Position numbers and translations under genes: made by a program. A DNA stretch of 42,858 nucleotides, from sequence record NC_072811.1, one strand, 5' to 3'. Under the pieces are notes generated by a model, which ran no database searches, was not told where the DNA came from, and worked only from the letters and a program-made list of their open reading frames with translations. This document shows, one piece after another, positions 3,187-23,019 of this stretch; position 1 is the stretch's first letter, and every line of letters begins with the position of its first letter. The DNA is from Escherichia phage Halfdan.

Positions 3187-3623
3187 TAGCGGAACCCCCA
3201 AACGTCGATAATGCGATGCGTTACCGGAACTTGCACAATTCCGACCGGATGCAAACAGGCAAACGCCTTATTGCGGTAGAACACACCCAAGCCGCAACGT
3301 TGGTCTACGCGACCTTTGCCGACGGATGCGCGGGGCCATTGAATGCAAACAACGTCGCCGTCTTTGGCTTCGGATAGGTCAATGATTCGACCGCCGACAG
3401 GCTTAACCAACGTTTCGAATACTTCCCGAACGACGACCGTTCCGAAGGTATCGTTAAGCATCATTGCGCAAGTTGATTCGTCCTTATAAGTCCGAATATC
3501 GCGCATAACGTCAACACCGGTTGCGATTTCGATAGCGCCAGCGGCAAAGGTGCAACAATCGAACTTGCCCCATTCGAAACGCTGTTCGGCGCATTCCGCC
3601 ATGTATTCGTGAATGTCTTTCAT
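3186..3623 (-). CDS. tail-associated protein, possible NlpC/P60-like cysteine peptidase
   Basis: 145 aa from ATG 3621-3623; FDCCTFAAG cysteine motif with downstream His; TAATG stop-start coupling on both sides. Confidence 0.3.
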   Translation of the reverse strand: MKDIHEYMAECAEQRFEWGKFDCCTFAAGAIEIATGVDVMRDIRTYKDESTCAMMLNDTFGTVVVREVFETLVKPVGGRIIDLSEAKDGDVVCIQWPRASVGKGRVDQRCGLGVFYRNKAFACLHPVGIVQVPVTHRIIDVWGFR

Positions 3624-4159
3624 TATGAACCCCAACGTACTTTTAATGTGGGCATCGAAGCGATGAACTTAAACCCTTTATCGTTCGGGTATTTCGCTTG
3701 CTGGTCTTCGTTAGTATACCGGGAATTAACCGAACGTGCCCAATTAATCAAGCGTGACGACGCGGAAGCCGCAACCGAAACAACTTGGCCTAAGTCAACG
3801 GTTAACGAATCAATTGTTCCGTTGAACCACGTAATCAAACCGGTTACAAGCTGGTTGTTTTTATCGACAAGCGCAATCGAAACCTTAATCGGTTTATTAC
3901 GCGTGTTTTCGTTAACAACGTCACCGGTCATAGTTGACGGAATATTAGTTAGGGTCAACTTTAACGCCGTAGCGGTTACACCGTTGGTCGTGGTGTAATC
4001 GCCGATTCGCCCAAGCGAACCGACGCCGTAATAAAGTTTTCCGCCGACAGTAATATTCCGGTCGGAAGTGTTCGCCAAGAACGGGCCACTTTCGAAACTG
4101 ATTTCTACAAAGTAAACCGGACGAACGACCTTTTCGTCGAACTGCGGGAAGTTACGCAT
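3623..4159 (-). CDS. tail protein, paralogue of the C-terminal domain of the 915-aa tail protein
   Basis: 178 aa; shares RPV(F/Y)FV and RYT(N/D)E.QQ...P.D(K/R)GFKFIA...K(V/L)(R/K)WG blocks with residues ~725-915 of ORF 4152..6899. Confidence 0.5.
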   Translation of the reverse strand: MRNFPQFDEKVVRPVYFVEISFESGPFLANTSDRNITVGGKLYYGVGSLGRIGDYTTTNGVTATALKLTLTNIPSTMTGDVVNENTRNKPIKVSIALVDKNNQLVTGLITWFNGTIDSLTVDLGQVVSVAASASSRLINWARSVNSRYTNEDQQAKYPNDKGFKFIASMPTLKVRWGS

Positions 4160-6899
4160 TTTGGTCGCCCCATTTTAGTTTGGTCGATTGCAAATCGGCG
4201 ATGAACTTAAATCCACGGTCGCCTGGGTGCAATAGTTGTTGGTATTCGTCGGTATAGCGGGCGGTTGAAGCCTTGTGCCAATCCGAAAGCGAAGACCGAA
4301 CGTTTAACTTAATCGTCGCGGTGTTACCGGTAAATTGAACGTTATTGTCGAGAATAGCGCCCGACCCGATAAGTCGCGGATTGCTGATTAGGATATTCGA
4401 AGGGTCAACCAAACCCAAGAACATTTTAACGCCCTTCGCCCGGATATGTTCGGTAACGTAATCGACCATATTAAGCGGAATGCCCGCAAGGCCCATTGAC
4501 CAACCAGCGTCGGAAGCGGCCAAGCCTTCCGTTACCGCTTCAATCTTGCCGAACTGGCCGGTCGCGAACCACGTTTTACCGTCATAGTCGATATTCTTGT
4601 CGGAACTGTTCATAAACGAATCGTCGCCAACTTGAACAAAGAACACCGGCCGAATAATACGGTCTTCAATTTCCGCGCCAAGTTGTCGGCGTGGCGGCAC
4701 GTATGGTTGAATCGCCGGGTCGGTTCCGTACAACGTATCGTCGTATGTAATACCGTCGCGGATAACTTGCGGGTATGCCCACACATAGATATTAGGGATT
4801 TCGTTCAAAATGGCTTCACGCGTCGCGATATTCACGTTAGGCCAAACCCAAGTTTCGCGGGCCGTGTTCACGAAGCCGACGAAGTAATGCACGACGGCCA
4901 ACGGATATTGCAAACGCACCGTCGCCGCTTCAAGGGTCAACGGCAACAAGTCAAGGTCGCCGTTAATAATCCAATCGTAATCCTCAATCTGTACGAAATC
5001 GTAATTCGGATAAATCCATTCCGATTCGGGGAAATTGATAATCGGCAACATTTCCGAAGCCGGGTTCATAATCTGCGGTGTAAAGAACAGCAGCGTACCC
5101 AACGAATCAGGATAAGCGGCCTTTACCGCATCCCGAATATAGTTGGTCGATTGGCCCAACTTCACGCCCAACCATTCCAAGTACGGGCGTTGGTCGTCGG
5201 TAATCGGCTGTTTATAGTTGGTGTAATACGGCGTCGGTACAGCGTGCCCGGTTTCGGTCGTATAAAGCCCCTTCGTGTATTCGTCGTAAATACACGGCGC
5301 ACCGTTCGTATAAGAACCGTCCCACCACCACGGTTCGCCAATCTGGAACATTAGCGTACTAATGCCGGATTCTTGAAGAAGTTTCATACCGTGTTTAATC
5401 GTCCGGGCTAGGTAATCCATCGCCGGAATAAACGTCGGAATCAGGAACGACGAAGGCGGCGACCAGCCCGAAAGCGCCGGGCTTCCGTAAGCGTCGCGTT
5501 GCTTCCATTCGTCCGGGCAATACGTGTTAAGGATTTCGTAAGACGTAGACCAAATAAACGTATAGCCGTAGGCTTGCATTTGGGTGAAGAAGTTACGGCA
5601 CCAAACTTCCGTAGGATAGTTCAGCGGTTCGGCCGCATCCTTTACCACTTGGTTAACGAATGTCGTACTTCCCCCGGTCGAATACGCCTTGAAATAGTGC
5701 GACATACCCATATACAGGTTGAAATGCCCCCGGTATCCAAGGTTGTACGTGTTATCAACTTGTCGCCACGGCGTAATATTGTATGTATCGTCGAAACCCG
5801 AAGTCATTTGCATATTATGCACGGCTTGCGGATAGAAACGACGACCGATAATGCGTCGCGCACCAGTTACCGAAATGTTCATCATTTCGAAGTTAAGCGA
5901 TTCGTTACCGATAGCCGTGTCGAGTTGAAGCGTAACGGCGTTCGCCGGGCCGCCGATAATCGCAACGTCTTTAAGCGGCCCGTTTTCGGCTTTTACATAT
6001 AGCGAAGTTCCCCGCATGTACCAGTTATTAACCTGAATCAAGAACGTTTGCAGGTTTTGAGTATAGATAGCGATAGGGTCGCCGCCGCCTTTACCGCCGT
6101 TCTTCTTACCGGTATTGACCGTTTTAACGTACTTGTCCGGTTGGACAATCGTAAATTGCAGAATGTCACCCTTCTTTAACCGCAAGTTAGGGTTAACGTT
6201 CATTACTTCCCAATAATCAAGCGTACCCGTACCCTTTACGCCGACGTATCGGGAACCGTAGTAACCAATTTCACCAATGCTTCGGATACGCGCATTCGGC
6301 CCAAGGCCATACGACCCCGGAGTAATGGCGAAGAAGAAGTTAATAATATAACGCGGGTCGATAACGTCGCCGTCGAAGTTGAACCCGGTTTTCATGTTGT
6401 CGAAATCAAGAATATAGATTTCGTAACCATCGGGAACGGTCGGCGTACCTTCGGGGAAGATATCAGAAATCGCGTAAATCAGGCCCGGCCCCGGCCCGGT
6501 AATTTCGATCGCACCGGGATTCGGAACCAGCGACTCGCCTTGTATCTTATACGGAAACATTCGGTAAACCTGATTACCGGAGTTCGACAGAACAGTTACC
6601 GTAAATTTGTACGGATAAAGCGGGTTCGCAACGAACCCAACTTTAACGCCGGAATAATCGCGGTCTTCGACGTACTGCAACAGGGGGTGCCCCATATCGT
6701 CGTGCGAAGTCCAAAGCAAGCCGACCAAATCGCGGTTAGAACGAAACTCACAATTTACGGTCAGCTTGTCGGGCGTATCGGCGATAATGGTTGCAATCGC
6801 CGACAACGGAAAGTCAAGGTGAAAATACCGGCCGTCGAAACGCGTAAGCGTCGAATTGGCGGCCGGTAGGGTTTCGCAGTATGCGCTATCGAATGCCAT
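4152..6899 (-). CDS. large tail protein (baseplate-hub-like, tail-tip complex)
   Basis: 915 aa; ATG 6897-6899 abuts stop of upstream gene; downstream of tape measure and distal tail genes; function inferred from synteny. Confidence 0.5.
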   Translation of the reverse strand: MAFDSAYCETLPAANSTLTRFDGRYFHLDFPLSAIATIIADTPDKLTVNCEFRSNRDLVGLLWTSHDDMGHPLLQYVEDRDYSGVKVGFVANPLYPYKFTVTVLSNSGNQVYRMFPYKIQGESLVPNPGAIEITGPGPGLIYAISDIFPEGTPTVPDGYEIYILDFDNMKTGFNFDGDVIDPRYIINFFFAITPGSYGLGPNARIRSIGEIGYYGSRYVGVKGTGTLDYWEVMNVNPNLRLKKGDILQFTIVQPDKYVKTVNTGKKNGGKGGGDPIAIYTQNLQTFLIQVNNWYMRGTSLYVKAENGPLKDVAIIGGPANAVTLQLDTAIGNESLNFEMMNISVTGARRIIGRRFYPQAVHNMQMTSGFDDTYNITPWRQVDNTYNLGYRGHFNLYMGMSHYFKAYSTGGSTTFVNQVVKDAAEPLNYPTEVWCRNFFTQMQAYGYTFIWSTSYEILNTYCPDEWKQRDAYGSPALSGWSPPSSFLIPTFIPAMDYLARTIKHGMKLLQESGISTLMFQIGEPWWWDGSYTNGAPCIYDEYTKGLYTTETGHAVPTPYYTNYKQPITDDQRPYLEWLGVKLGQSTNYIRDAVKAAYPDSLGTLLFFTPQIMNPASEMLPIINFPESEWIYPNYDFVQIEDYDWIINGDLDLLPLTLEAATVRLQYPLAVVHYFVGFVNTARETWVWPNVNIATREAILNEIPNIYVWAYPQVIRDGITYDDTLYGTDPAIQPYVPPRRQLGAEIEDRIIRPVFFVQVGDDSFMNSSDKNIDYDGKTWFATGQFGKIEAVTEGLAASDAGWSMGLAGIPLNMVDYVTEHIRAKGVKMFLGLVDPSNILISNPRLIGSGAILDNNVQFTGNTATIKLNVRSSLSDWHKASTARYTDEYQQLLHPGDRGFKFIADLQSTKLKWGDQNA

Positions 6900-7514: not shown

Positions 7515-10500
7515 TTAGTTTGCCGCCTGTTTAATGACTTTCGACCAAGTACCGCCCATGCGGATACTATCCATAATGTCGGCTTGCGTCTTCTGCGAAA
7601 TTGCGGTCGCCGCTTTTTCCAGCGAATCGGCGGAACTGTCGCCGGAACCGCCCTGTACGGTAATATTGTTGTCGATATCGAATGCGACCATAACAACACC
7701 GCCGCCACCATTACCGGCATTATCGCTATTTTGGTTCACTGCGGCAACCGAACCGCCGTTGTTCATCGCTTCAAGCGTTGCGCGGTGTTTGCGCGTAGCC
7801 GCCGCATTAACGACGAATTCTTGACCGTGAACCACGCCCGCAACTTCGGACGTACCGACGTCGCCGGTATAGCCACCAGTTTTAAAGCCCTTGGCCGCGA
7901 AGCCCATTACCATACCGAACAACACGGCAAGCGCCGCGATACCGGCCACGGCCGCACCGCCGAACGATGCCGCCGAAGTCACGGCCGCCGCTGGTGCCCA
8001 AGCTGCCGTAGTCGTGGCCGCCGCTGCGGTCGATTGTGCGGTCGTCGCAGTGATAGCGGTTTGCGCTAACGCTTGGTTGACGACGTATTGAATACCGACC
8101 TTGATAAGTGCGCCGATAAGTTCCGAAAGAATTTGCTTCGAAACTTGCGACAACGTATCTTGCAGGTTTTCACCGTACACGATAGCGCGGCCGATGCTGT
8201 TTGCGAATCCGTCAACGAACCCGGTAAAGAAGTTACCCCAAGCGCCCGACAGACCTTGCAACACGCCTTGATAGTTCGAAACAAGTTGGCCCATACCGGC
8301 GACAATTGCGTCGTTAAATCCGGCCGTACCCATTTGCATTTTAAGATTTGCGGCATCGACGTTCAGTTGTTGCATTTTAATGCCGTACTGTTCCGCCGAA
8401 ATTGCGCCGTTCGCCAACGCCTGATTATACGCCTGTTGTTGCGCCGTCAAGTCGGCTTGTGCGCCCTTGGTTTCGCTGTAAATCTTGTTCAGAACGTCCG
8501 ATTTCTTTTGCGCTTCGTCAAGTGCAACGGTCGTCTTACGGATGCTTTCGGCCATAGCTTCGCTAAACGGCAAGCCCGCTTGCAATGCGGCGTTTCGCGC
8601 CTGAATAACGTTTCGTTCCGCTTCCATCGCCGGGCCGACTTTCGACAGTACGTCGAATTGTTCTTGTGCCGCCTTGTTGAACGAATACAGCGGGTCGGTT
8701 GCGCTGGCGTATGCGTCTTTCGCCTTGGCGACCAATGCGTTATATTTTTCAAGGCTAATTGCGCCAGTGTCATAAAGCGCCTTGGCGACAGCCATTGCGG
8801 CGTTATATTCGCGCAAAGGTGCGGTAACTTCTTTAAGAGCCTTGTTGTAATCTTTCTGTTCTTGCGTCAACTTGGCTTTCTTCGTTTTGCCGTCGTCGCC
8901 CGAAAGCTGGTTCGTACCGGCACCGCGAAGGTTCGACTTAGCCGCTTCGGCTTCCGCTGCGCGGCGGGCTTCCGAAATCTTGCGGGCACCTTGCATAATG
9001 GCGTCGGTCATACCGCCAACGTAATCGGTTTGGAAGCCCGACACGGCGGCTTGTGCGACAGCCGAACCGGCGTCTTTCGCTTCCTGTTCGATTTGCATAC
9101 GCGGCAATTCGATTTTCGCTTTGTCAAGTGCGCCGTTCAACTTGGCGACCAGTTCCGGGGCAACACCTTCGGCAAGCGACGCAATGCCGCGAATGCCGAT
9201 TTGCCAGCTATTCACCAGCGTTTCAACAGCCGTTGCGCCAGCGTTCACGACAAGCGCAAACAGCCCTTTCATAAGGGCCGGGAAGTTGTCCCAAACGGTT
9301 TTAACGACGTTGTACGCGGAAACCCAAGCGCCGATATAACCGTTAACAGTCGCCTTAACTAGCGACAGAATGGTATCGCCAAGCGAACGGAAGTTTTCAC
9401 CCCAACCGTTAGTTTTTTCGTTAATCCAATCAATCGCCTTACCCCAAAGCGATTGGATTTCGGCACCAACGGCGCTAAACCCGTCGCCGACAATCGAAAG
9501 AACCGACTTCGCAACGTCTTGCAGGTTAACCAGACCGTCGGAAGTAACCGAAATCTTGTCGCCGAATACGGTAAGGGCTGCGATAGCGGTTGTAATGGCA
9601 ATCGCGATAAGGCCAATCGGGTTGGCCGCTAGGGCCGCCGTGAAGCCAATTACGGCGGTCGTCGCTGCGCCAAGGGCGGATAGCAGGGCTGGCCCGAACG
9701 CGACCAGCAGGGCCGCGCCTACGGCCACAAGCGCCACGGTCAACAGGTCGAGATTGTTACCAAGCCAAAGAATCGCCTTCGCCAGTGCCGACGATACGCC
9801 GGTCGCTTTATCCAGCTTACCGACGAATTGGCCGACTTGGTTGTTAAGTACGGTCATCGCTTGCCCGATTGTGGGCGTCGTTTTCGCGAAGGTATCGTCG
9901 ATTTGCTGTTGAATAAGCTGGAACGCTTTAAACAGAACTTCCGACGTAATCTTGCCTTCTGTACCGAGTTTTTTAACTTGGTCAACCGGTTTGTTAAGCG
10001 CCTTGGCTACGGCGTCCAATACGACGGGCATGTTTTCCGACACGGAACGGAATTCGTCGCCTTGCAACTTACCGGAGTTGAACGCCTGCGAAAGCTGCAA
10101 CAGGGCCGACGATGCTTCCGACGAAGTGGCACCGGATACGACCAACGCTTTGTTAATGGTTTCGGTCATTCGCAAAGTATCTTCTTGCGATTTACCCATT
10201 AACTTCAACGACCGGTCAAAGCGCGTAAATGCGGTCGCGGTTTCGTCAACCCCGGCACGCGTCTTGTTCGCAAGTTCGTACAGGCGGTCGGTAAGTTCGT
10301 TAACTTGCGCTTGCGACGACGAAACGTTTTGCAATTTGTTTTGCAAAGCGGTATAACTGTCGGCGTACTTCAACAGGGCACCGGTTGCGGCGGTAATCGC
10401 GGCAATCGAAAGCGCACGCTTTGCGAAGTCCATAAACGAATTAGTCGTTTTCTGGTTCTGTTCTTCCAACTTCTTTTGCGCCTGTTGCAGACGAATAGAA

Positions 10501-10964
10501 GCCAGTTCCGCACGCGACGCGGCGGCGGCACTGTTCGATTGTGCGGTCGAAGTCTTAGCCGTTTCGGTCGCTAACTTCGCTTCGGCGGTCGCGGTGTTAG
10601 CGGTTGCGGTAGCCAAGCGTTGTTGCGCCGTCGCCGTATTGGTCGAAGCGGTAGCCAAACGGGCTTGCGCGTTCGCGGCGTTTGCGGCCGACTGTTCAAC
10701 GCGGTTTTGCAAGATAGCGGCTTGCGCGGCCGTGGTATTGGCCGCCTGTTGCGCTTGTGCAAGTTTGGTCGAAGCCGACGCCGCTTGGTTCATTGCGGCC
10801 GAAAGCGATTGCAACCCCTTACCGTCAAGCATGGCAAGTTGTTGTTTCAGCGTTTCAACTGCGGTATGCGCGTTGCGGGCCGACGCGGCGATTCGGTCAA
10901 TCTTCGCCGGGATAGACGCCGCTACGCCGTCCGTAATTTCAATAACGATTTGTTCGTCGGCCAT
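7515..10964 (-). CDS. tail tape measure protein
   Basis: 1149 aa; Ala/Gln-rich N-terminal region with tandem peptide repeats, central hydrophobic segments, location after chaperone genes. Confidence 0.85.
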   Translation of the reverse strand: MADEQIVIEITDGVAASIPAKIDRIAASARNAHTAVETLKQQLAMLDGKGLQSLSAAMNQAASASTKLAQAQQAANTTAAQAAILQNRVEQSAANAANAQARLATASTNTATAQQRLATATANTATAEAKLATETAKTSTAQSNSAAAASRAELASIRLQQAQKKLEEQNQKTTNSFMDFAKRALSIAAITAATGALLKYADSYTALQNKLQNVSSSQAQVNELTDRLYELANKTRAGVDETATAFTRFDRSLKLMGKSQEDTLRMTETINKALVVSGATSSEASSALLQLSQAFNSGKLQGDEFRSVSENMPVVLDAVAKALNKPVDQVKKLGTEGKITSEVLFKAFQLIQQQIDDTFAKTTPTIGQAMTVLNNQVGQFVGKLDKATGVSSALAKAILWLGNNLDLLTVALVAVGAALLVAFGPALLSALGAATTAVIGFTAALAANPIGLIAIAITTAIAALTVFGDKISVTSDGLVNLQDVAKSVLSIVGDGFSAVGAEIQSLWGKAIDWINEKTNGWGENFRSLGDTILSLVKATVNGYIGAWVSAYNVVKTVWDNFPALMKGLFALVVNAGATAVETLVNSWQIGIRGIASLAEGVAPELVAKLNGALDKAKIELPRMQIEQEAKDAGSAVAQAAVSGFQTDYVGGMTDAIMQGARKISEARRAAEAEAAKSNLRGAGTNQLSGDDGKTKKAKLTQEQKDYNKALKEVTAPLREYNAAMAVAKALYDTGAISLEKYNALVAKAKDAYASATDPLYSFNKAAQEQFDVLSKVGPAMEAERNVIQARNAALQAGLPFSEAMAESIRKTTVALDEAQKKSDVLNKIYSETKGAQADLTAQQQAYNQALANGAISAEQYGIKMQQLNVDAANLKMQMGTAGFNDAIVAGMGQLVSNYQGVLQGLSGAWGNFFTGFVDGFANSIGRAIVYGENLQDTLSQVSKQILSELIGALIKVGIQYVVNQALAQTAITATTAQSTAAAATTTAAWAPAAAVTSAASFGGAAVAGIAALAVLFGMVMGFAAKGFKTGGYTGDVGTSEVAGVVHGQEFVVNAAATRKHRATLEAMNNGGSVAAVNQNSDNAGNGGGGVVMVAFDIDNNITVQGGSGDSSADSLEKAATAISQKTQADIMDSIRMGGTWSKVIKQAAN
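10570..10700 (-). repeat. in-frame tandem repeats within tape measure gene
   Basis: about 42-nt units encoding repeated (Q/E)A(R/K)LAT(A/E)(S/T).NTATA-type peptides. Confidence 0.5.
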
Positions 10965-10973
10965 GATTTCGCC

Positions 10974-11411
10974 TTATTTCAGTTTTAGTTTATACCGCTG
11001 AACAGCCTTGCGAACCTTGGCTAAACAGCGTTCTACAAATCCGGCCGATTGTTGGGCCGAATAACCGTCGTTCAATCGCTTGATATACGGTTGATTGTTC
11101 GTTATATAAATCTTTTGTCCGGGCTTCTTATTAGCCAATACGGCTTTTGCTTGCGCGATTGTTTCGGCGGCCGATGCGTTGCGCGTCGAACCCTTTTCGC
11201 CGGGATAATGCGCCTTGCCCACATTAGAAGACGGCGCGTCTAAGGTGACTTCCCAAGACGACAGTGCCTTCGACGTATCAACGGGCGTCGTATATGCCAG
11301 TTCAGCGACGGCGGTAACAGCAACAAAAACGGCCGCTTCGCTGGCGGCCGTCTCAATTTCGGCCTTTTTCTTTTCTAGCCGATTGGCTAAGTCTAAAAGA
11401 TTACCGGCCAT
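10974..11411 (-). CDS. hypothetical tail-associated protein
   Basis: 145-aa ORF, ATG 11409-11411, between chaperone and tape measure genes. Confidence 0.4.
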   Translation of the reverse strand: MAGNLLDLANRLEKKKAEIETAASEAAVFVAVTAVAELAYTTPVDTSKALSSWEVTLDAPSSNVGKAHYPGEKGSTRNASAAETIAQAKAVLANKKPGQKIYITNNQPYIKRLNDGYSAQQSAGFVERCLAKVRKAVQRYKLKLK

Positions 11412-12206
11412 GTTTAGGAACCTTTACGGGTTGTTTCGACTGTTTGGGTTGCTTTGACTCCAAACGTTTTAAGTGTTCGGTATCCATCCGTCGAATATGA
11501 AACAACAGTGATTCGGTTTGTTCTTCGTCGAATTCGAAAGCCCTTGCGTATCCGATGATTGACGACCAACTAATCGGCGTTAATCCTAACGAATGCGAAC
11601 GTTCGGAATCTAAATCGAAGAACGCTTGCAAATACAGTTGTAACCCTAATTCTAGTTCTGGTGCATTTGCTATCCGGTCGGGCATCGGTTCACCCGACCG
11701 GAACGCCTGTTGTGCTATGGTCTTTTCGTGCGGCCCTAACTCCAACAGATACAACAGAACTTCGGTTAGTTTTTTGCTTCGGCTTCCTGCGCTTCTTCCT
11801 TGAACATTGCGGCCGACTTCGCTTGGTTCTGCAAGTCGTCGTACAGTTCCGGCAAACGGCCGAACAGCGACAGCGCATTCGCACGGTTGAACGGCGCGAA
11901 GCCGGTATCTTCTTCGTTGCCGGTTACGTCGGAAAGTTGGACGTTTTCCCAACCTTTCAACACGGTATCGACGAATACGCCCATGAATACGCGTTCGGCA
12001 ACGTCGTTCGCCAGCGTACCCATTTCGATTTGACGACGGTACGGACGGGTTGCCGCTTCAAGCGCACGCGTGTAACGCGTATTCGCTTTCGACATACGGG
12101 AAATATGGAAGCCGGGAACGGAACCGTCGTCGTTCTGGCCGAATTGGATAACTACGCCTTCGACTTCTTTGGCGGTATCGGTAGCGAACTGTTTGGAAAG
12201 CGACAT
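11401..12206 (-). CDS. tail assembly chaperone G-T fusion via -1 programmed ribosomal frameshift
   Basis: track ORF 11401..11952 is in the -1 frame and open across the end of the G ORF; shift at 11769-11775 gives a ~268-aa product; the first ~60 codons of the track ORF are Arg-rich and unlikely to be translated independently. Confidence 0.5.
11766..12206 (-). CDS. tail assembly chaperone (G-like)
   Basis: 146 aa; coding strand ends GCA AAA AAC TAA; the -1 frame stays open for a further 123 codons. Confidence 0.6.
   Translation of the reverse strand: MSLSKQFATDTAKEVEGVVIQFGQNDDGSVPGFHISRMSKANTRYTRALEAATRPYRRQIEMGTLANDVAERVFMGVFVDTVLKGWENVQLSDVTGNEEDTGFAPFNRANALSLFGRLPELYDDLQNQAKSAAMFKEEAQEAEAKN
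11769..11775 (-). other. slippery heptanucleotide A_AAA_AAC (candidate -1 frameshift site)
   Basis: minus-strand sequence AAAAAAC immediately before the G stop codon. Confidence 0.5.
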
Positions 12207-12271
12207 AATTTCAAATCCTTATTTCGGAAGTTGGAGAAAAACGGGCCGGATATCGCACCGGCCCATTTAGT

Positions 12272-13801
12272 TTACTGCGGCATTGCCTTGTTTGGCAAGT
12301 ATTCGAAGAATTCAACCAACAGCGTATGGCCGAATTTCGATTCTGCGCCGTTGGTATCCAACGGAACAGTAATCGGGTTGTCTTTTTCGACGTTGATACG
12401 ACCGCCGCCAAGCGACAACAGCGGGATATCGTAAATCATGCCGCGATTGTTTGCCGCAAGAATCGCGTAGATACCAACGTCGGCGTTATTGCGTACCGCT
12501 TGGGTTGCCGCAACAGTGGTAAAGTAAGCGGTAACAGACCCGCCGACTTCGAAGTCGCCCGCCGAAGTATCGAACGCACCCAATACCCCGACCGCTTTGT
12601 TCGGCGTGATATTGTTGTTCACTTCGATAGAACCTTCGGAAATGTAGCCGAACAGCGGGGTCGGATTCGGGTTCGCCGAATTGTTGACCGACATACGGAT
12701 ACGGTAAACGTCGGACGAAGTGTTATACGCCGATTGACCAAGCGCCGAAACACGCGTACCCGCCTTGACGCCAACCGCACCGGTACGCTGTTCGTTGTCG
12801 CACGCTACAAAGGTAACGTCGGCGTTCAGCTTGTCGGCTTGCGGAATGTTCAAGGTGAATTCGTTTGCAACGGCACCGACAAGGTATTCGGATTGCATAC
12901 CGTCGGCGTCTTGGCCTAGCGTGCGTTCCAGTTGGTACGAACGGCGCTTAATCAGGTTGGCCGACTTTTCGTTACGAATGACGGTGCCGAAGTATACTTG
13001 CAGCGTGATACCGGTTCCGGCTTCGGTTACAGGCGTCCAAGTGGCGTTGTCGAGCGTAACGGTTTTGCTGTCGGTCGAAATGGCCGCAACGCGGGCGTAA
13101 CCAACGTTGTTGGCAAACGAAGTGCCAGCGCCATCGCCGCCGATGAACACCCATTGACCCGGAATCAGGCCAAAGGCGAACGAACCGGCCGTCGCGGTCA
13201 GGGTCAGCAGACCGGCCGCATAGGTCAACGCAACGTCGCCCGATGCGAATTCGTGACCGACGCGGGTAAGTGCGCCGTTCGGTGCCGCGCCTTCGTCGGA
13301 CAACGCGCCCCATACGGTAACGGCGGTTGCGATTGCGTCGCTAACCTTTTTCATGCCGTTGTTTGTGGGCACCGCGAAACCGCTTGCGACAACCAAGTCG
13401 CCAGCCGCGAAGATACCCAATCCCGAAGCGGCGGTGTACTTGATTTCGTCGCCGTCTACGCCGGTCATCGAAACTTTAGCCGCATTCAACGGCGCGGTTT
13501 GCGGTTGCTGGCGGGCATCGGCAAAGCAAAAGCCTTGCATAAGCCGGGTAATGTTGTCGGCCGTTACGTCGGTGTTGAAACCGCCCGAAGCGTCCAAGTC
13601 GGTAACGGTGCCTTTCTTCCGCTGGCGCGAAGGGTCAATCGGGGCGCGTGCCACGGTCGTAACTTCGCCGCCGAAGTCCGAATAGCTGTTCGGTTCCAGC
13701 CCGTACCAAATGGGCGTAGCCGGAAGCTGTTTCAAGCATTCTTCTTCGGCGAACGAAAGGCCCGAAATATTGCTGTCGATTTTGTTAACGTCGCAGACCA
13801 T
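12272..13801 (-). CDS. major tail protein (tube; sheath not excluded)
   Basis: 509 aa; ATG 13799-13801 with AAGGA SD; lies between connector genes and chaperones. Confidence 0.45.
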   Translation of the reverse strand: MVCDVNKIDSNISGLSFAEEECLKQLPATPIWYGLEPNSYSDFGGEVTTVARAPIDPSRQRKKGTVTDLDASGGFNTDVTADNITRLMQGFCFADARQQPQTAPLNAAKVSMTGVDGDEIKYTAASGLGIFAAGDLVVASGFAVPTNNGMKKVSDAIATAVTVWGALSDEGAAPNGALTRVGHEFASGDVALTYAAGLLTLTATAGSFAFGLIPGQWVFIGGDGAGTSFANNVGYARVAAISTDSKTVTLDNATWTPVTEAGTGITLQVYFGTVIRNEKSANLIKRRSYQLERTLGQDADGMQSEYLVGAVANEFTLNIPQADKLNADVTFVACDNEQRTGAVGVKAGTRVSALGQSAYNTSSDVYRIRMSVNNSANPNPTPLFGYISEGSIEVNNNITPNKAVGVLGAFDTSAGDFEVGGSVTAYFTTVAATQAVRNNADVGIYAILAANNRGMIYDIPLLSLGGGRINVEKDNPITVPLDTNGAESKFGHTLLVEFFEYLPNKAMPQ

Positions 13802-22276: not shown

Positions 22277-22721
22277 ATCGACCGTTCACCAATTCGCGCT
22301 GTTGCTTTGCGACCTTCTGCGCCCATTCGTCGTTAGTGCCGTGGTCTTTAACGACCATGACACGCGGGGCCGCGTCAACGTTGATATTCGTTGTCGTATT
22401 CGCTTTGGGGTCGTAGATACCGGCAACCGCGCCGTACTTTTCAGCGGCGGCGATTCGGTCTTTAGGGTCGATTTTTTCGTTATTCGCCAAATCCCAATAG
22501 AAGCGGGCAAGGTCGAATTTCGACGCAATGGCTTGAACGTTCTTCGCGTCCGACCGAAGCCGGTTCATTTCTGCGATAACGTCTTCGTCGTTCGCCCAAT
22601 TGGTCGCATACCATAGGGCTTGGCCCGTGTTGTCCGGGCATAGCAGGCAAGCGGCCTTGAACGGGTCGCGTTCCTGTAAAAGAAAAGCCGCATAAGCGGC
22701 CTTCGATTTCGTGTCTTCCAT
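22251..22721 (-). CDS. putative terminase small subunit
   Basis: 156 aa from ATG 22719-22721 (TAAGG SD); 3' end overlaps terL start; call by position. Confidence 0.4.
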   Translation of the reverse strand: MEDTKSKAAYAAFLLQERDPFKAACLLCPDNTGQALWYATNWANDEDVIAEMNRLRSDAKNVQAIASKFDLARFYWDLANNEKIDPKDRIAAAEKYGAVAGIYDPKANTTTNINVDAAPRVMVVKDHGTNDEWAQKVAKQQRELVNGRYVANTTKH

Positions 22722-22782
22722 ATCGGGCGGCCTTACTGTTAATCGAACTTGGTTCAATCATAATACAGCCGCCCGATATAGT

Positions 22783-23019
22783 CTATTTCTTTGACTTCCG
22801 GGGGTCGCCGCAATTCTTTACGAACGTTTCGTTATGCGATAAGATTTGCCGCGCCGTTCCATCCGTGATTACGTCGTCTTTCGACACGTAAATCGGCTGA
22901 ACCCATTTGCAAGCGGTATCAACCGTTACGACTTTCGGCGATTCAATCCCGCGACCATTCGTCGCGCAACTTGTTAGCAGCATCGCCGGGATTAAGACGG
23001 TTAATATCCGCTTGAACAT
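22783..23019 (-). CDS. o-spanin (outer-membrane lipoprotein)
   Basis: 78 aa; signal peptide with lipobox LLTSC; embedded out of frame in the 3' end of the i-spanin gene. Confidence 0.6.
   Translation of the reverse strand: MFKRILTVLIPAMLLTSCATNGRGIESPKVVTVDTACKWVQPIYVSKDDVITDGTARQILSHNETFVKNCGDPRKSKK

What the first reader, a model, noticed from the sequence alone, without database searches (positions are those of the whole stretch)
11401..12206. Programmed -1 frameshift in the tail assembly chaperone (G/GT) with slippery site A_AAA_AAC
The 146-aa G ORF ends GCA AAA AAC TAA, and the -1 frame is open from this heptamer for another 123 codons to 11401. That is the conserved G/GT arrangement of long-tailed phages and supports the tail-module annotation. 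An extra 145-aa gene lies between GT and the tape measure, which is less usual.
Basis: partly seen in the sequence, partly recalled or inferred. Interest (0 to 1): 0.4.

Follow-up and report, generated by a model that had tools for sequence, protein, structure and literature searches.

The report
Tail chaperone frameshift with RNA structure
This is the standard "slip back one base" trick that long-tailed phages use to make two versions of a tail-building helper protein, already noted for this phage genus, though a large conserved RNA fold right after the slip site seems not to have been described.

Summary
The 146-aa ORF (12206..11766, minus strand) ends GCA AAA AAC TAA. The -1 frame runs on from the heptamer (11775..11769) for 122 sense codons to the stop at 11403..11401.

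The window is Escherichia phage Halfdan (Lokivirus). The two ORFs match tail-assembly-chaperone families, and one 271-position PHROG profile spans both. They lie between the tail-tube and tape-measure genes.

In 71 distinct relatives the slippery heptamer sits at the same codon. It is A_AAA_AAC or G_GGA_AAC in nearly all, and the -1 frame is often closed only 9 nt upstream. A programmed -1 G/GT frameshift is therefore strongly supported, though untested here. It was already predicted for the same genus (phage Loki, PMC5313236), as was the HK97-gp10-like gene before the tape measure. GenBank records of Halfdan-type phages still annotate two separate genes.

The new point is a ~108-nt three-helix RNA structure that starts 7 nt after the heptamer. 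Its energy is -50.5 kcal/mol (z about -5 to -6). Its stability is conserved in 70 relatives, while control regions of the same genes show none, and covariation is moderate. It is probably a frameshift stimulator, comparable to the IS911 three-way junction. This is an ordinary finding with one modestly novel detail.

The parts
11766..12206 (-). G ORF: tail assembly chaperone, 146 aa, 0 frame, ending ...EAEAKN*
   Evidence: ORF list and sequence. Matches phrog_313 (E 1.7e-29) and phrog_8233 (E 3.7e-26), both 'tail assembly chaperone'.
11769..11775 (-). Slippery heptamer A_AAA_AAC (P-site AAA Lys, A-site AAC Asn)
   Evidence: Sequence. Same position in 71 relatives: A_AAA_AAC in most, otherwise G_GGA_AAC, plus single cases of GGGAAAT, AAAAAAT and GGAAAAC.
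11766..11768 (-). 0-frame TAA stop of G, directly 3' of the heptamer
   Evidence: Sequence. A stop directly follows the heptamer in 65 of 67 IMG/VR relatives. It is 39 nt further downstream in YuA.
11401..11769 (-). T extension in the -1 frame: 122 sense codons plus stop. With G it gives a 268-aa GT fusion.
   Evidence: Translation. Matches phrog_3817 'tail chaperonin' (E 2.7e-36), phrog_8233 positions 139-256, and Pfam PF23812 Phage_TAC_18 (E 1.4e-26, above its cut-off).
11654..11761 (-). Predicted three-way-junction RNA structure, closed by helix P1 (11761..11749 pairs with 11666..11654). The spacer between heptamer and P1 is 7 nt.
   Evidence: MFE -50.5 kcal/mol, z -6.2 against dinucleotide shuffles and z -5.1 against a synonymous-codon null. 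Helix coordinates and pair probabilities of 0.93 or more. Conserved in relatives.
11707..11748 (-). Helix H2, Halfdan/Pavpe01 variant: CUGUUG 11748..11743 pairs with CAACAG 11712..11707, with short inner pairs. Most relatives instead pair the 5' arm with GAACAG about 12 nt nearer.
   Evidence: In the alignment, pairs 28-54 and 31-51 show synonymous double changes.
11669..11706 (-). Helix H3: an 11-bp perfect stem (11702..11692 with 11683..11673) plus 2 outer pairs
   Evidence: Best covariation support: column pair 75-102 ranks first of 8256 by corrected mutual information and 78-99 ranks fourth. 8 of its 13 pairs show changes on both sides.
11783..11788 (-). Possible upstream Shine-Dalgarno-like AGGAAG, 7 nt 5' of the heptamer. 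Weak and unverified.
   Evidence: Sequence. AGGA/GGAG/GAGG motifs start 10-12 nt upstream of the heptamer in 37 of 71 relatives.
10974..11411 (-). 145-aa Neck1/tail-completion (HK97 gp10-like) gene between GT and the tape measure. Its start overlaps the end of T.
   Evidence: phrog_169 E 1.1e-33. Same position in PaMx42_20, YuA gp68, IME_AB3_29 and RcTitan gp20. Loki gp14 was described as HK97 gp10-like.
12272..13801 (-). Major tail tube protein gene (509 aa), immediately upstream of G
   Evidence: Pfam PF18906 Phage_tube_2 E 5e-25. Annotated as major tail protein in relatives.
7515..10964 (-). Tape measure protein gene (1149 aa)
   Evidence: Pfam PF20155 TMP_3 E 3e-63.

Best explanation
Gene G (12206..11766, minus strand) encodes a 146-aa tail assembly chaperone, and most ribosomes stop at its TAA. 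A minority slip back one base on A_AAA_AAC (11775..11769), with tRNA-Lys on AAA and tRNA-Asn on AAC re-pairing to AAA AAA. They then read CTA ACC GAA... and produce a 268-aa GT fusion (...EAEAKN-LTEVLLYLL...). By analogy with lambda gpG/gpGT, the G part binds the tape measure protein and the T part recruits the tail tube protein, in a fixed low GT:G ratio.

What is shown: the ORF arrangement, the family matches, and the strict conservation of a slippery heptamer at this codon.

What is inferred: that the shift happens, how efficient it is, and what the proteins do.

A further inference, which I put at about 0.6: the 108-nt three-helix mRNA structure that begins 7 nt after the heptamer (11761..11654) acts as the stimulator. 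It would resist unwinding at the ribosome's mRNA entry site while the heptamer is being decoded. This would compensate for a heptamer ending in AAC, which is much less shift-prone on E. coli ribosomes than A_AAA_AAG. The adjacent stop codon and a weak upstream SD-like AGGAAG may also contribute.
For: - Anatomy.
- Family matches: one PHROG profile spans G and T, and the T part matches Pfam Phage_TAC_18.
- Synteny: tail terminator, tube, G/GT, Neck1, tape measure.
[quoted passage not shown] The -1 frame is closed 9 nt upstream in several, and a stop follows the heptamer in 65 of 67.
- T coding: T-frame amino-acid conservation starts at the first codon after the heptamer. The internal ATG is not conserved.
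- Rarity: in-frame canonical heptamers occur at 4 per 10,058 codons in the window.
- Prior annotation and literature: joined CDS in RcSimone-Hastad and the same prediction for Loki and IME_AB3.
- RNA structure in the window: MFE -50.5 kcal/mol, z -6.2, z -5.1 against a synonymous-codon null, ranked third of 797 windows on this strand.
- RNA structure in relatives: in 70 relatives the 120 nt after the heptamer has median z -3.65, with 86% below -2. Three control regions of the same genes have medians of 0.04, -1.18 and -0.80.
- Spacing: the first stable helix starts 5-8 nt after the heptamer in 53 of 71.
- Pairing: 75% of cells are paired against 31-41% for slid controls, and the covariation score exceeds all 500 shuffles. 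The figure is 74% in 46 sequences not used to derive the structure.
- Independent prediction: RNAalifold recovers the same three helices from 18 sequences. The top mutual-information column pair is an H3 pair.
- Context: the Atkins review states that A_AAA_AAC is much less shifty than A_AAA_AAG in E. coli and that IS911 uses a three-way-junction stimulator.
Against: - There is no experimental evidence for this phage or any close relative: no junction peptide and no reporter assay.
- Covariation is moderate. P1 is mostly conserved sequence with little variation, and only 2 of 35 proposed pairs fall in the top 100 mutual-information pairs (p = 0.07).
- Synonymous-site identity is not elevated over the structured region.
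- RNAalifold gave no consensus on the full 26-sequence set.
- The Acinetobacter members IME_AB3 (L096) and L099 keep the heptamer but show no excess stability (z about -0.1), so the structure cannot be indispensable.
- From my own memory of Levin et al. 1993, not checked here: lambda G/GT needs no downstream structure.
- The AlphaFold model of GT (pLDDT 80) matched no solved chaperone fold.
Confidence: 0.85

Rival explanations
1. G and T are two independent genes, as the GenBank records of Halfdan_Juelich_variant and Shy annotate them. T would be translated on its own from the internal ATG at 11685 (94 aa 'tail chaperonin') or from the TTG at 11952.
For: The records list separate CDS for 'tail assembly chaperone' and 'tail chaperonin'. 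In this window the -1 frame happens to be open 288 nt upstream, with a TTG at 11952.
Against: The ATG codon is ATG or GTG in only 12 of 71 relatives and is often ATA, TTA or CTN. The 28 T-frame codons upstream of it are conserved as protein right back to the heptamer. In relatives the -1 frame is closed 9-30 nt upstream of the heptamer, so the TTG-11952 ORF does not exist there. One PHROG profile spans both parts.
Confidence: 0.04
2. The fusion arises by transcriptional slippage. RNA polymerase adds one extra A in the A6 run, giving mRNAs that encode ...AKK-LTEV... without any ribosomal shift.
For: The site contains six consecutive A residues, and an insertion of one A would give the same downstream frame.
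Against: At least 15 relatives use G_GGA_AAC, with only three A residues in a row, at the same position. That sequence is a tandem-slippage heptamer but not a polymerase slippage run. By general knowledge, productive bacterial transcriptional slippage usually needs runs of about 8-9 or more. The conserved feature is the X_XXY_YYZ pattern in the G frame.
Confidence: 0.03
3. The shift is ribosomal, but it is a single P-site slip provoked by the adjacent stop codon. After AAC is decoded, the ribosome waits with TAA in the A site and peptidyl-tRNA-Asn slides from AAC to AAA. This is not classical tandem slippage. The product would be identical.
For: A 0-frame stop directly follows the heptamer in 65 of 67 IMG/VR relatives and in 5 of 6 annotated relatives.
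Against: The first three bases of the heptamer (AAA or GGG) are conserved as a slippery triplet, which a P-site-only slip would not require. In YuA the stop is 39 nt downstream and in two contigs it is one codon further on, yet the heptamer is kept.
Confidence: 0.15
4. The conserved RNA structure is real but is not a frameshift stimulator. It might instead protect the sparsely translated T region from Rho or RNases, set mRNA half-life, or control expression of the downstream Neck1 and tape measure genes.
For: Only a small share of ribosomes should translate the 366 nt after the G stop, so the region is exposed. The Acinetobacter relatives keep the heptamer without the structure. Other strongly structured windows exist in this genome.
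Against: Excess stability is confined to the first 120 nt after the heptamer. T codons 43-82 have median z 0.04. The first helix starts 5-8 nt after the heptamer in 53 of 71 relatives, which is the canonical stimulator spacing.
Confidence: 0.25

Closest known systems
Lambda gpG/gpGT and the conserved tail-assembly-chaperone frameshift of long-tailed phages (Levin et al. 1993; Xu, Hendrix & Duda 2004, as summarised in PMC5009743)
   Same: Two overlapping ORFs downstream of the major tail gene and upstream of the tape measure gene. A -1 shift on an X_XXY_YYZ heptamer near the end of G, with the T domain made only as a fusion. G_GGA_AAC in relatives differs from lambda's G_GGA_AAG by one base.
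   Different: There is no detectable sequence similarity to lambda G/T. The heptamer ends in AAC, not AAG. The G stop codon directly abuts the heptamer. An extra Neck1-like gene separates GT from the tape measure. A large conserved downstream RNA structure is present, whereas lambda is thought to need none (from memory).
Acinetobacter phage vB_AbaS_Loki gp12/gp13 and IME_AB3_31/30 (Turner et al. 2017, PMC5313236)
   Same: Same genus by NCBI taxonomy. The paper notes the same motif, AAAAAAC next to the stop codon of the chaperone gene, and the same HK97 gp10-like gene between the chaperones and the tape measure.
   Different: That paper gives a prediction only and mentions no RNA structure. The Acinetobacter members lack the excess RNA stability seen in Halfdan and the Septimatrevirus-like relatives.
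IS911 -1 frameshift cassette (A_AAA_AAG, upstream SD, downstream three-way junction; cited in PMC5009743)
   Same: A bacterial -1 shift on an A-rich heptamer with a multi-helix three-way junction a few nucleotides downstream, and possibly an upstream SD-like element.
   Different: Unrelated sequence and gene. IS911 uses AAG in the A site and has a well-defined SD. Its stimulator has been shown by mutagenesis, whereas this one is only predicted.
E. coli dnaX frameshift (A_AAA_AAG, SD 10 nt upstream, stem-loop downstream, stop soon after)
   Same: The local context AAGCAAAAAAN, a nearby 0-frame stop, and a downstream structure at similar spacing.
   Different: dnaX yields a shorter product at about 50% efficiency and uses a simple hairpin. 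Here the shift extends the protein and is expected to be a few per cent.
IS1 insA-insB' frameshift on A6C (from memory: Sekine & Ohtsubo 1989)
   Same: The same heptamer, A_AAA_AAC, working at low efficiency on E. coli ribosomes.
   Different: It is a transposase gene, and no elaborate stimulator has been reported for it.

Membership tests
G/GT tail assembly chaperone with programmed frameshift (Xu, Hendrix & Duda 2004) | Two overlapping ORFs located between the major tail (tube) gene and the tape measure gene | tested here: met
   Tube gene 12272..13801 (Phage_tube_2), G 11766..12206, T 11401..11769, tape measure 7515..10964 (TMP_3). One extra gene (10974..11411) lies between GT and the tape measure.
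G/GT tail assembly chaperone with programmed frameshift (Xu, Hendrix & Duda 2004) | A canonical slippery sequence within the overlap, near the 3' end of G, leading into the frame of T | tested here: met
   A_AAA_AAC at 11775..11769 covers the last two codons of G. It is the only such heptamer in the G frame.
G/GT tail assembly chaperone with programmed frameshift (Xu, Hendrix & Duda 2004) | The slip site and the two-frame arrangement are conserved in relatives, and T has no start of its own | tested here: met
   71 distinct relatives keep a slippery heptamer at the same codon. The -1 frame is closed 9-30 nt upstream in many. The internal ATG is not conserved.
G/GT tail assembly chaperone with programmed frameshift (Xu, Hendrix & Duda 2004) | Sequence membership in annotated tail-assembly-chaperone families | tested here: met
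   phrog_313, phrog_8233 and phrog_3817 (E 1e-26 to 1e-36). Pfam PF23812 Phage_TAC_18 on T scores 92.8 bits against a cut-off of 27. No Pfam family matches G.
G/GT tail assembly chaperone with programmed frameshift (Xu, Hendrix & Duda 2004) | The spiral fold of solved tail assembly chaperones (Pell et al. 2013) | tested here: inconclusive
G/GT tail assembly chaperone with programmed frameshift (Xu, Hendrix & Duda 2004) | Both G and GT are made at a fixed low GT:G ratio, both are required for tail assembly, and neither is in virions | not testable with these tools
   Needs proteomics, reporter assays and genetics.
-1 PRF cassette with a 3' stimulatory mRNA structure (dnaX / IS911 type) | A stable structure beginning about 5-9 nt 3' of the heptamer | tested here: met
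   In the window P1 starts 7 nt after the heptamer, with MFE -50.5 kcal/mol and z -6.2 or -5.1. The spacer is 5-8 nt in 53 of 71 relatives.
-1 PRF cassette with a 3' stimulatory mRNA structure (dnaX / IS911 type) | The structure is conserved beyond what coding requires, with compensatory changes | tested here: met
   Median z -3.65 in 70 relatives against about 0 to -1.2 in control regions. 75% of cells paired against 31-41% for slid controls, and 0 of 500 shuffles reach the covariation score. The figure is 74% in 46 held-out sequences. Covariation is strong only in H3, and synonymous identity is not elevated.
-1 PRF cassette with a 3' stimulatory mRNA structure (dnaX / IS911 type) | An upstream Shine-Dalgarno-like stimulator about 10-14 nt 5' of the shift site | tested here: inconclusive
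   AGGAAG lies 7 nt upstream in the window. A 4-nt SD core starts 10-12 nt upstream of the heptamer in 37 of 71 relatives. It is weak and is also explained by the conserved LE.E peptide.
-1 PRF cassette with a 3' stimulatory mRNA structure (dnaX / IS911 type) | Mutations that break the structure lower frameshifting, and compensatory mutations restore it | not testable with these tools
   Needs a reporter assay.
Neck1 / tail-completion protein (HK97 gp10-like), for the 145-aa gene | A sequence match to the family | tested here: met
   phrog_169 'tail completion or Neck1 protein' E 1.1e-33. Pfam PF04883 gave no hit even at E <= 10. The Loki paper reports the HK97 gp10-like domain by HHsearch for the homologue gp14.
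Neck1 / tail-completion protein (HK97 gp10-like), for the 145-aa gene | The usual gene position among the head-tail connector genes, upstream of the major tail gene | tested here: not met
   Here, and in PaMx42, YuA, IME_AB3 and RcTitan, it lies between GT and the tape measure.
Any described RNA family (Rfam 15) | A covariance-model match at or near the gathering score | tested here: not met
   No match over 11300..12300 apart from two chance-level hits (E about 0.6), and none in the whole window at gathering thresholds.

The most novel reading that the evidence does not exclude
The ~108-nt three-way-junction mRNA element that begins 5-8 nt after the heptamer is a dedicated stimulator of the G/GT frameshift, specific to this phage clade. 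It is conserved across Halfdan-type phages, Septimatrevirus-like phages, Titanvirus and the YuA-like group. It would have evolved because X_XXA_AAC heptamers are intrinsically weak on bacterial ribosomes, and it would set the GT:G ratio. If so, it would be the first conserved, multi-genus structured stimulator described for the phage tail-chaperone frameshift, and a candidate new cis-regulatory RNA family.
Probability: 0.55. Interest if true: 0.45.

Novelty: new member of a known kind. Interest (0 to 1): 0.28.

Why it matters
The frameshift mainly matters for annotation. Public records of Halfdan, Shy, Pavpe01, PaMx42 and many Septimatrevirus-like phages list G and a truncated 'tail chaperonin' as separate genes, or omit T altogether. 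The correct product is a joined 268-aa GT.

The downstream RNA structure would be of modest interest to recoding specialists if it proves functional. It would show that some tail-chaperone frameshifts rely on a large three-way-junction stimulator, as IS911 does. It would also offer a natural series for studying how heptamer strength and stimulator strength together set a fixed protein ratio. [quoted passage not shown]

Tried and rejected
- Rfam scans of the region at a permissive E-value and of the whole window at gathering thresholds found nothing relevant.
- RNAalifold on the first 26-sequence alignment returned no consensus structure. It succeeded only on an 18-sequence subset of closer relatives.
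- A synonymous-codon identity profile along G and T showed no clear rise over the structured region. It therefore gives no support, and I rely on stability and pair counts instead.
- A mutual-information ranking supported H3 strongly, but P1 and H2 only weakly.
- A search for pseudoknot partners of the H2 and H3 loops, spacer and junction downstream found only 5-nt matches, which is chance level.
- PDB sequence searches with GT and with the 145-aa protein were empty.
- Pfam gave no family for G or for the 145-aa protein, even at E <= 10.
- Considered and rejected: that the 509-aa upstream protein is a sheath and the 146-aa ORF a tube protein, which would be a myovirus layout. The 509-aa protein matches Phage_tube_2, and the 146-aa ORF matches chaperone families.
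- Literature searches found no description of a stimulatory structure for this clade.
Full report
**What is in the sequence.** On the minus strand, the ORF 12206..11766 encodes 146 aa and ends GAA GCA AAA AAC TAA. The heptamer A_AAA_AAC occupies 11775..11769 and the stop codon occupies 11768..11766. Reading from the C of the heptamer in the -1 frame gives CTA ACC GAA GTT..., that is LTEVLLYLLELGPHEK.... The predicted fusion is 268 aa. It is the only canonical X_XXY_YYZ heptamer in the G frame. Across 26 large ORFs of the window there are only 4 such in-frame heptamers in 10,058 codons. The 145-aa ORF 11411..10974 follows, its ATG sitting 8 nt upstream of the T stop. The 1149-aa ORF 10964..7515 comes next.

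**What the window is.** Megablast shows it is essentially Escherichia phage Halfdan. It is 99.1% identical to PP954860, the Halfdan_Juelich_variant, which NCBI places in Lokivirus. It is 98.4% identical to phage Shy and 81% to Pseudomonas phage Pavpe01. More distant relatives include Septimatrevirus (PaMx42, phage 73), Acinetobacter phages Loki and IME_AB3, Rhodobacter Titanvirus, and the YuA-like phages.

**Gene identities.**
- PHROG and Pfam scans give the order major head protein, Ad1 adaptor, Hc1 head closure, tail terminator, 509-aa tail tube protein (Pfam Phage_tube_2), G, T, a 145-aa 'tail completion or Neck1' protein (phrog_169, E 1e-33), and the tape measure protein (Pfam TMP_3).
- G matches phrog_313 and phrog_8233, both 'tail assembly chaperone'.
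- The -1 extension matches phrog_3817 'tail chaperonin' and Pfam PF23812 Phage_TAC_18, above its curated cut-off.
- The single 271-position profile phrog_8233 aligns to G over positions 6-140 and to T over 139-256. Fused GT proteins therefore already exist among annotated phage proteins.

**Comparative test of the frameshift.** I collected relatives using the T protein only, in two scans of IMG/VR plus annotated phage records.
- All 71 distinct sequences (T identity down to about 40-50%) have a slippery heptamer at exactly the codon position aligned with 11775..11769. It is A_AAA_AAC in most and G_GGA_AAC in at least 15. There is one case each of G_GGA_AAT, A_AAA_AAT and the non-canonical G_GAA_AAC.
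- The switch between AAAAAAC and GGGAAAC changes the encoded residue from Lys to Gly (...EAKN versus ...EAGN) but keeps the X_XXY_YYZ pattern. This is the signature of selection on slipperiness and not on the protein.
- In many relatives the -1 frame is closed by a stop only 9-30 nt upstream of the heptamer. The 288-nt upstream opening and the TTG at 11952 in this window are therefore accidental.
- T-frame amino-acid conservation begins at the first codon after the heptamer. The internal ATG (11685) that GenBank uses as the start of a 94-aa 'tail chaperonin' is ATG or GTG in only 12 of 71 relatives.
- A 0-frame stop follows the heptamer directly in 65 of 67 IMG/VR sequences. In YuA it lies 39 nt downstream while the heptamer is retained.
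- The record of the distant homologue RcSimone-Hastad annotates the joined CDS.
- G_GGA_AAC has no homopolymer run, so transcriptional slippage does not explain the conserved pattern.

I conclude that a ribosomal -1 shift producing GT is very likely (about 0.9), although nobody has shown it experimentally for this clade.

[quoted passage not shown] It also describes gp14, encoded between the chaperones and the tape measure, as HK97 gp10-like (PMC5313236). The 145-aa gene's position is indeed unusual for a Neck1 protein. It is nevertheless conserved across the clade: PaMx42_20, YuA gp68, IME_AB3_29 and RcTitan gp20.

- The 119 nt after the heptamer (11768..11650) fold at -50.5 kcal/mol, against -29.6 +/- 3.4 for dinucleotide shuffles (z -6.2, 0 of 200 shuffles as stable).
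- Against a null that keeps the amino-acid sequence and the phage's codon usage, z is -5.1 (0 of 1000). The protein sequence therefore does not explain the fold.
- In a scan of 797 windows on this strand the region ranks third.
- The fold is a three-way junction. P1 pairs 11761..11749 with 11666..11654 (12 pairs, one mismatch) and starts 7 nt after the heptamer. H2 pairs 11748..11743 with 11712..11707. H3 pairs 11702..11692 with 11683..11673 (11 perfect pairs). Pair probabilities in P1 and H3 are 0.93 or higher.
- The first 59 nt alone do not fold well, so the long-range P1 helix is essential to the model.

**Conservation of the structure.**
- In 70 relatives the 120 nt after the heptamer have a median MFE of -48 kcal/mol and a median z of -3.65 against the synonymous-codon null. 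86% fall below -2. Three control regions of the same genes give medians of 0.04, -1.18 and -0.80.
- The first stable helix begins 5-8 nt after the heptamer in 53 of 71 relatives. It usually closes about 115 nt downstream.
- With the three-helix structure imposed on the ungapped 71-sequence alignment, 75% of cells form standard pairs, against 31-41% when the 3' partners are slid by 1-3 columns. The covariation score is 0.177 against 0.05-0.09 for slid controls, and 0 of 500 shuffles reach it.
- The 46 sequences not used to derive the structure pair at 74%.
- RNAalifold independently recovers the same three helices on an 18-sequence subset.
- Several double changes are synonymous on both sides. 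Examples are Leu CUG/UUG with Gln CAG/CAA at columns 28-54, and Ala GCN with Ile AUH at columns 72-105.
- Column pair 75-102 has the highest corrected mutual information of all 8256 column pairs, and 78-99 ranks fourth.

**Weaknesses of the structural case.**
- P1 is mostly invariant sequence and so says little about covariation.
- Only 2 of 35 proposed pairs are among the top 100 mutual-information pairs.
- Synonymous-site identity is not raised over the region.
- RNAalifold failed on the broader 26-sequence set.
- The Acinetobacter members show no excess stability (z about -0.1).
- No Rfam family matches, and no pseudoknot partner was found.

I put the structure being real and selected at about 0.8, and its role as the frameshift stimulator at about 0.6.

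**Mechanism.**
- Shown: the anatomy and its conservation.
- Inferred: tRNA-Lys (P site, AAA) and tRNA-Asn (A site, AAC) re-pair in the -1 frame on AAA AAA while the ribosome is held by P1 at its entry channel. Translation then continues into T.
- According to the Atkins et al. review, A_AAA_AAC is much less shift-prone than A_AAA_AAG on E. coli ribosomes. [quoted passage not shown]
- A weak heptamer combined with a strong structure is therefore a coherent way to obtain a low, fixed GT:G ratio. None of the 71 relatives uses AAG.
- The abutting stop codon may add a pause, or may allow a P-site-only slip. This is a mechanistic variant I cannot exclude.
- The upstream AGGAAG (11788..11783) is too weak and too poorly conserved to call.
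- The protein functions follow from the lambda model summarised: G binds the tape measure and T recruits the tube protein. They were not tested here.

**Verdict.** The finding is real and correctly interpreted, but ordinary. It is a textbook G/GT frameshift, already predicted for the genus and mis-annotated as two genes in the public Halfdan-type records. The one modestly novel element is the conserved three-way-junction RNA immediately downstream, which appears not to have been described and can be tested with a simple reporter.

Noticed in passing
window 22660-22840 (minus strand): This is the strongest RNA-structure outlier on the strand (z -8.5 in the scan). It contains a ~28-bp near-perfect long hairpin, followed by a GC-rich hairpin with a U-run that looks like an intrinsic terminator. 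It has no Rfam match.
   Followed up: partly
window 12236-12264 (minus strand), between the tail tube gene and G: The hairpin GGGCCGG-TGCGATAT-CCGGCCC is followed by GTTTTTCT, directly after the major tail gene stop. It looks like an attenuating terminator ahead of the chaperone genes, and PaMx42 annotates terminators at the same place. The scan tool listed this stem on the + strand only.
   Followed up: partly
L001 (PP954860) 3195-4000; also OR996328, PP179316, JQ067092: Public records of Halfdan-type and related phages annotate G and a truncated 'tail chaperonin' starting at a non-conserved internal ATG as separate genes, or leave T unannotated as in Pavpe01. The joined GT CDS is missing.
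   Followed up: yes
window 11707-11748 versus alignment columns 48-54 in relatives: In Halfdan and Pavpe01 the 3' arm of helix H2 has moved about 12 nt downstream. This goes with a swap of Gln and Lys codons (HEK..AQQ instead of HEQ..AKQ). The hairpin is kept with a different partner.
   Followed up: partly
L096 (IME_AB3) and L099, 120 nt after the heptamer: The Acinetobacter members of the clade keep AAAAAAC plus the adjacent stop, but show no excess RNA stability (z about -0.1). Nearly all other relatives do show it.
   Followed up: no
L061:1495-1501: One metagenomic relative has G_GAA_AAC, which is not a canonical X_XXY_YYZ heptamer, at the slip position. This could be an A-site-only slip, a sequencing error or a defective phage.
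   Followed up: no
L031 (YuA) 1954-2114: The YuA record annotates an experimentally active -24/-12 type promoter inside the T-coding region, just upstream of the Neck1 homologue gp68. This suggests the downstream genes may have their own transcription start in some relatives.
   Followed up: no
window 4152-6899 (minus strand): The 915-aa protein downstream of the tape measure carries the Pfam 'non-contractile tail sheath protein' N-terminal and TIM-barrel domains (E 1e-97). This is an unusual tail component for a siphophage.
   Followed up: no
records PP954860 and OR996328: Nearly identical phages (98-99%) are recorded with Pseudomonas taiwanensis as host in one case and E. coli K-12 in the other. 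This hints at cross-order host range or at a labelling issue.
   Followed up: no
window 11326-11354 (minus strand), inside the 145-aa gene: A terminator-like hairpin (11 pairs followed by a T-run) lies within the first 30 codons of the Neck1-like gene. It is a consensus match only.
   Followed up: no
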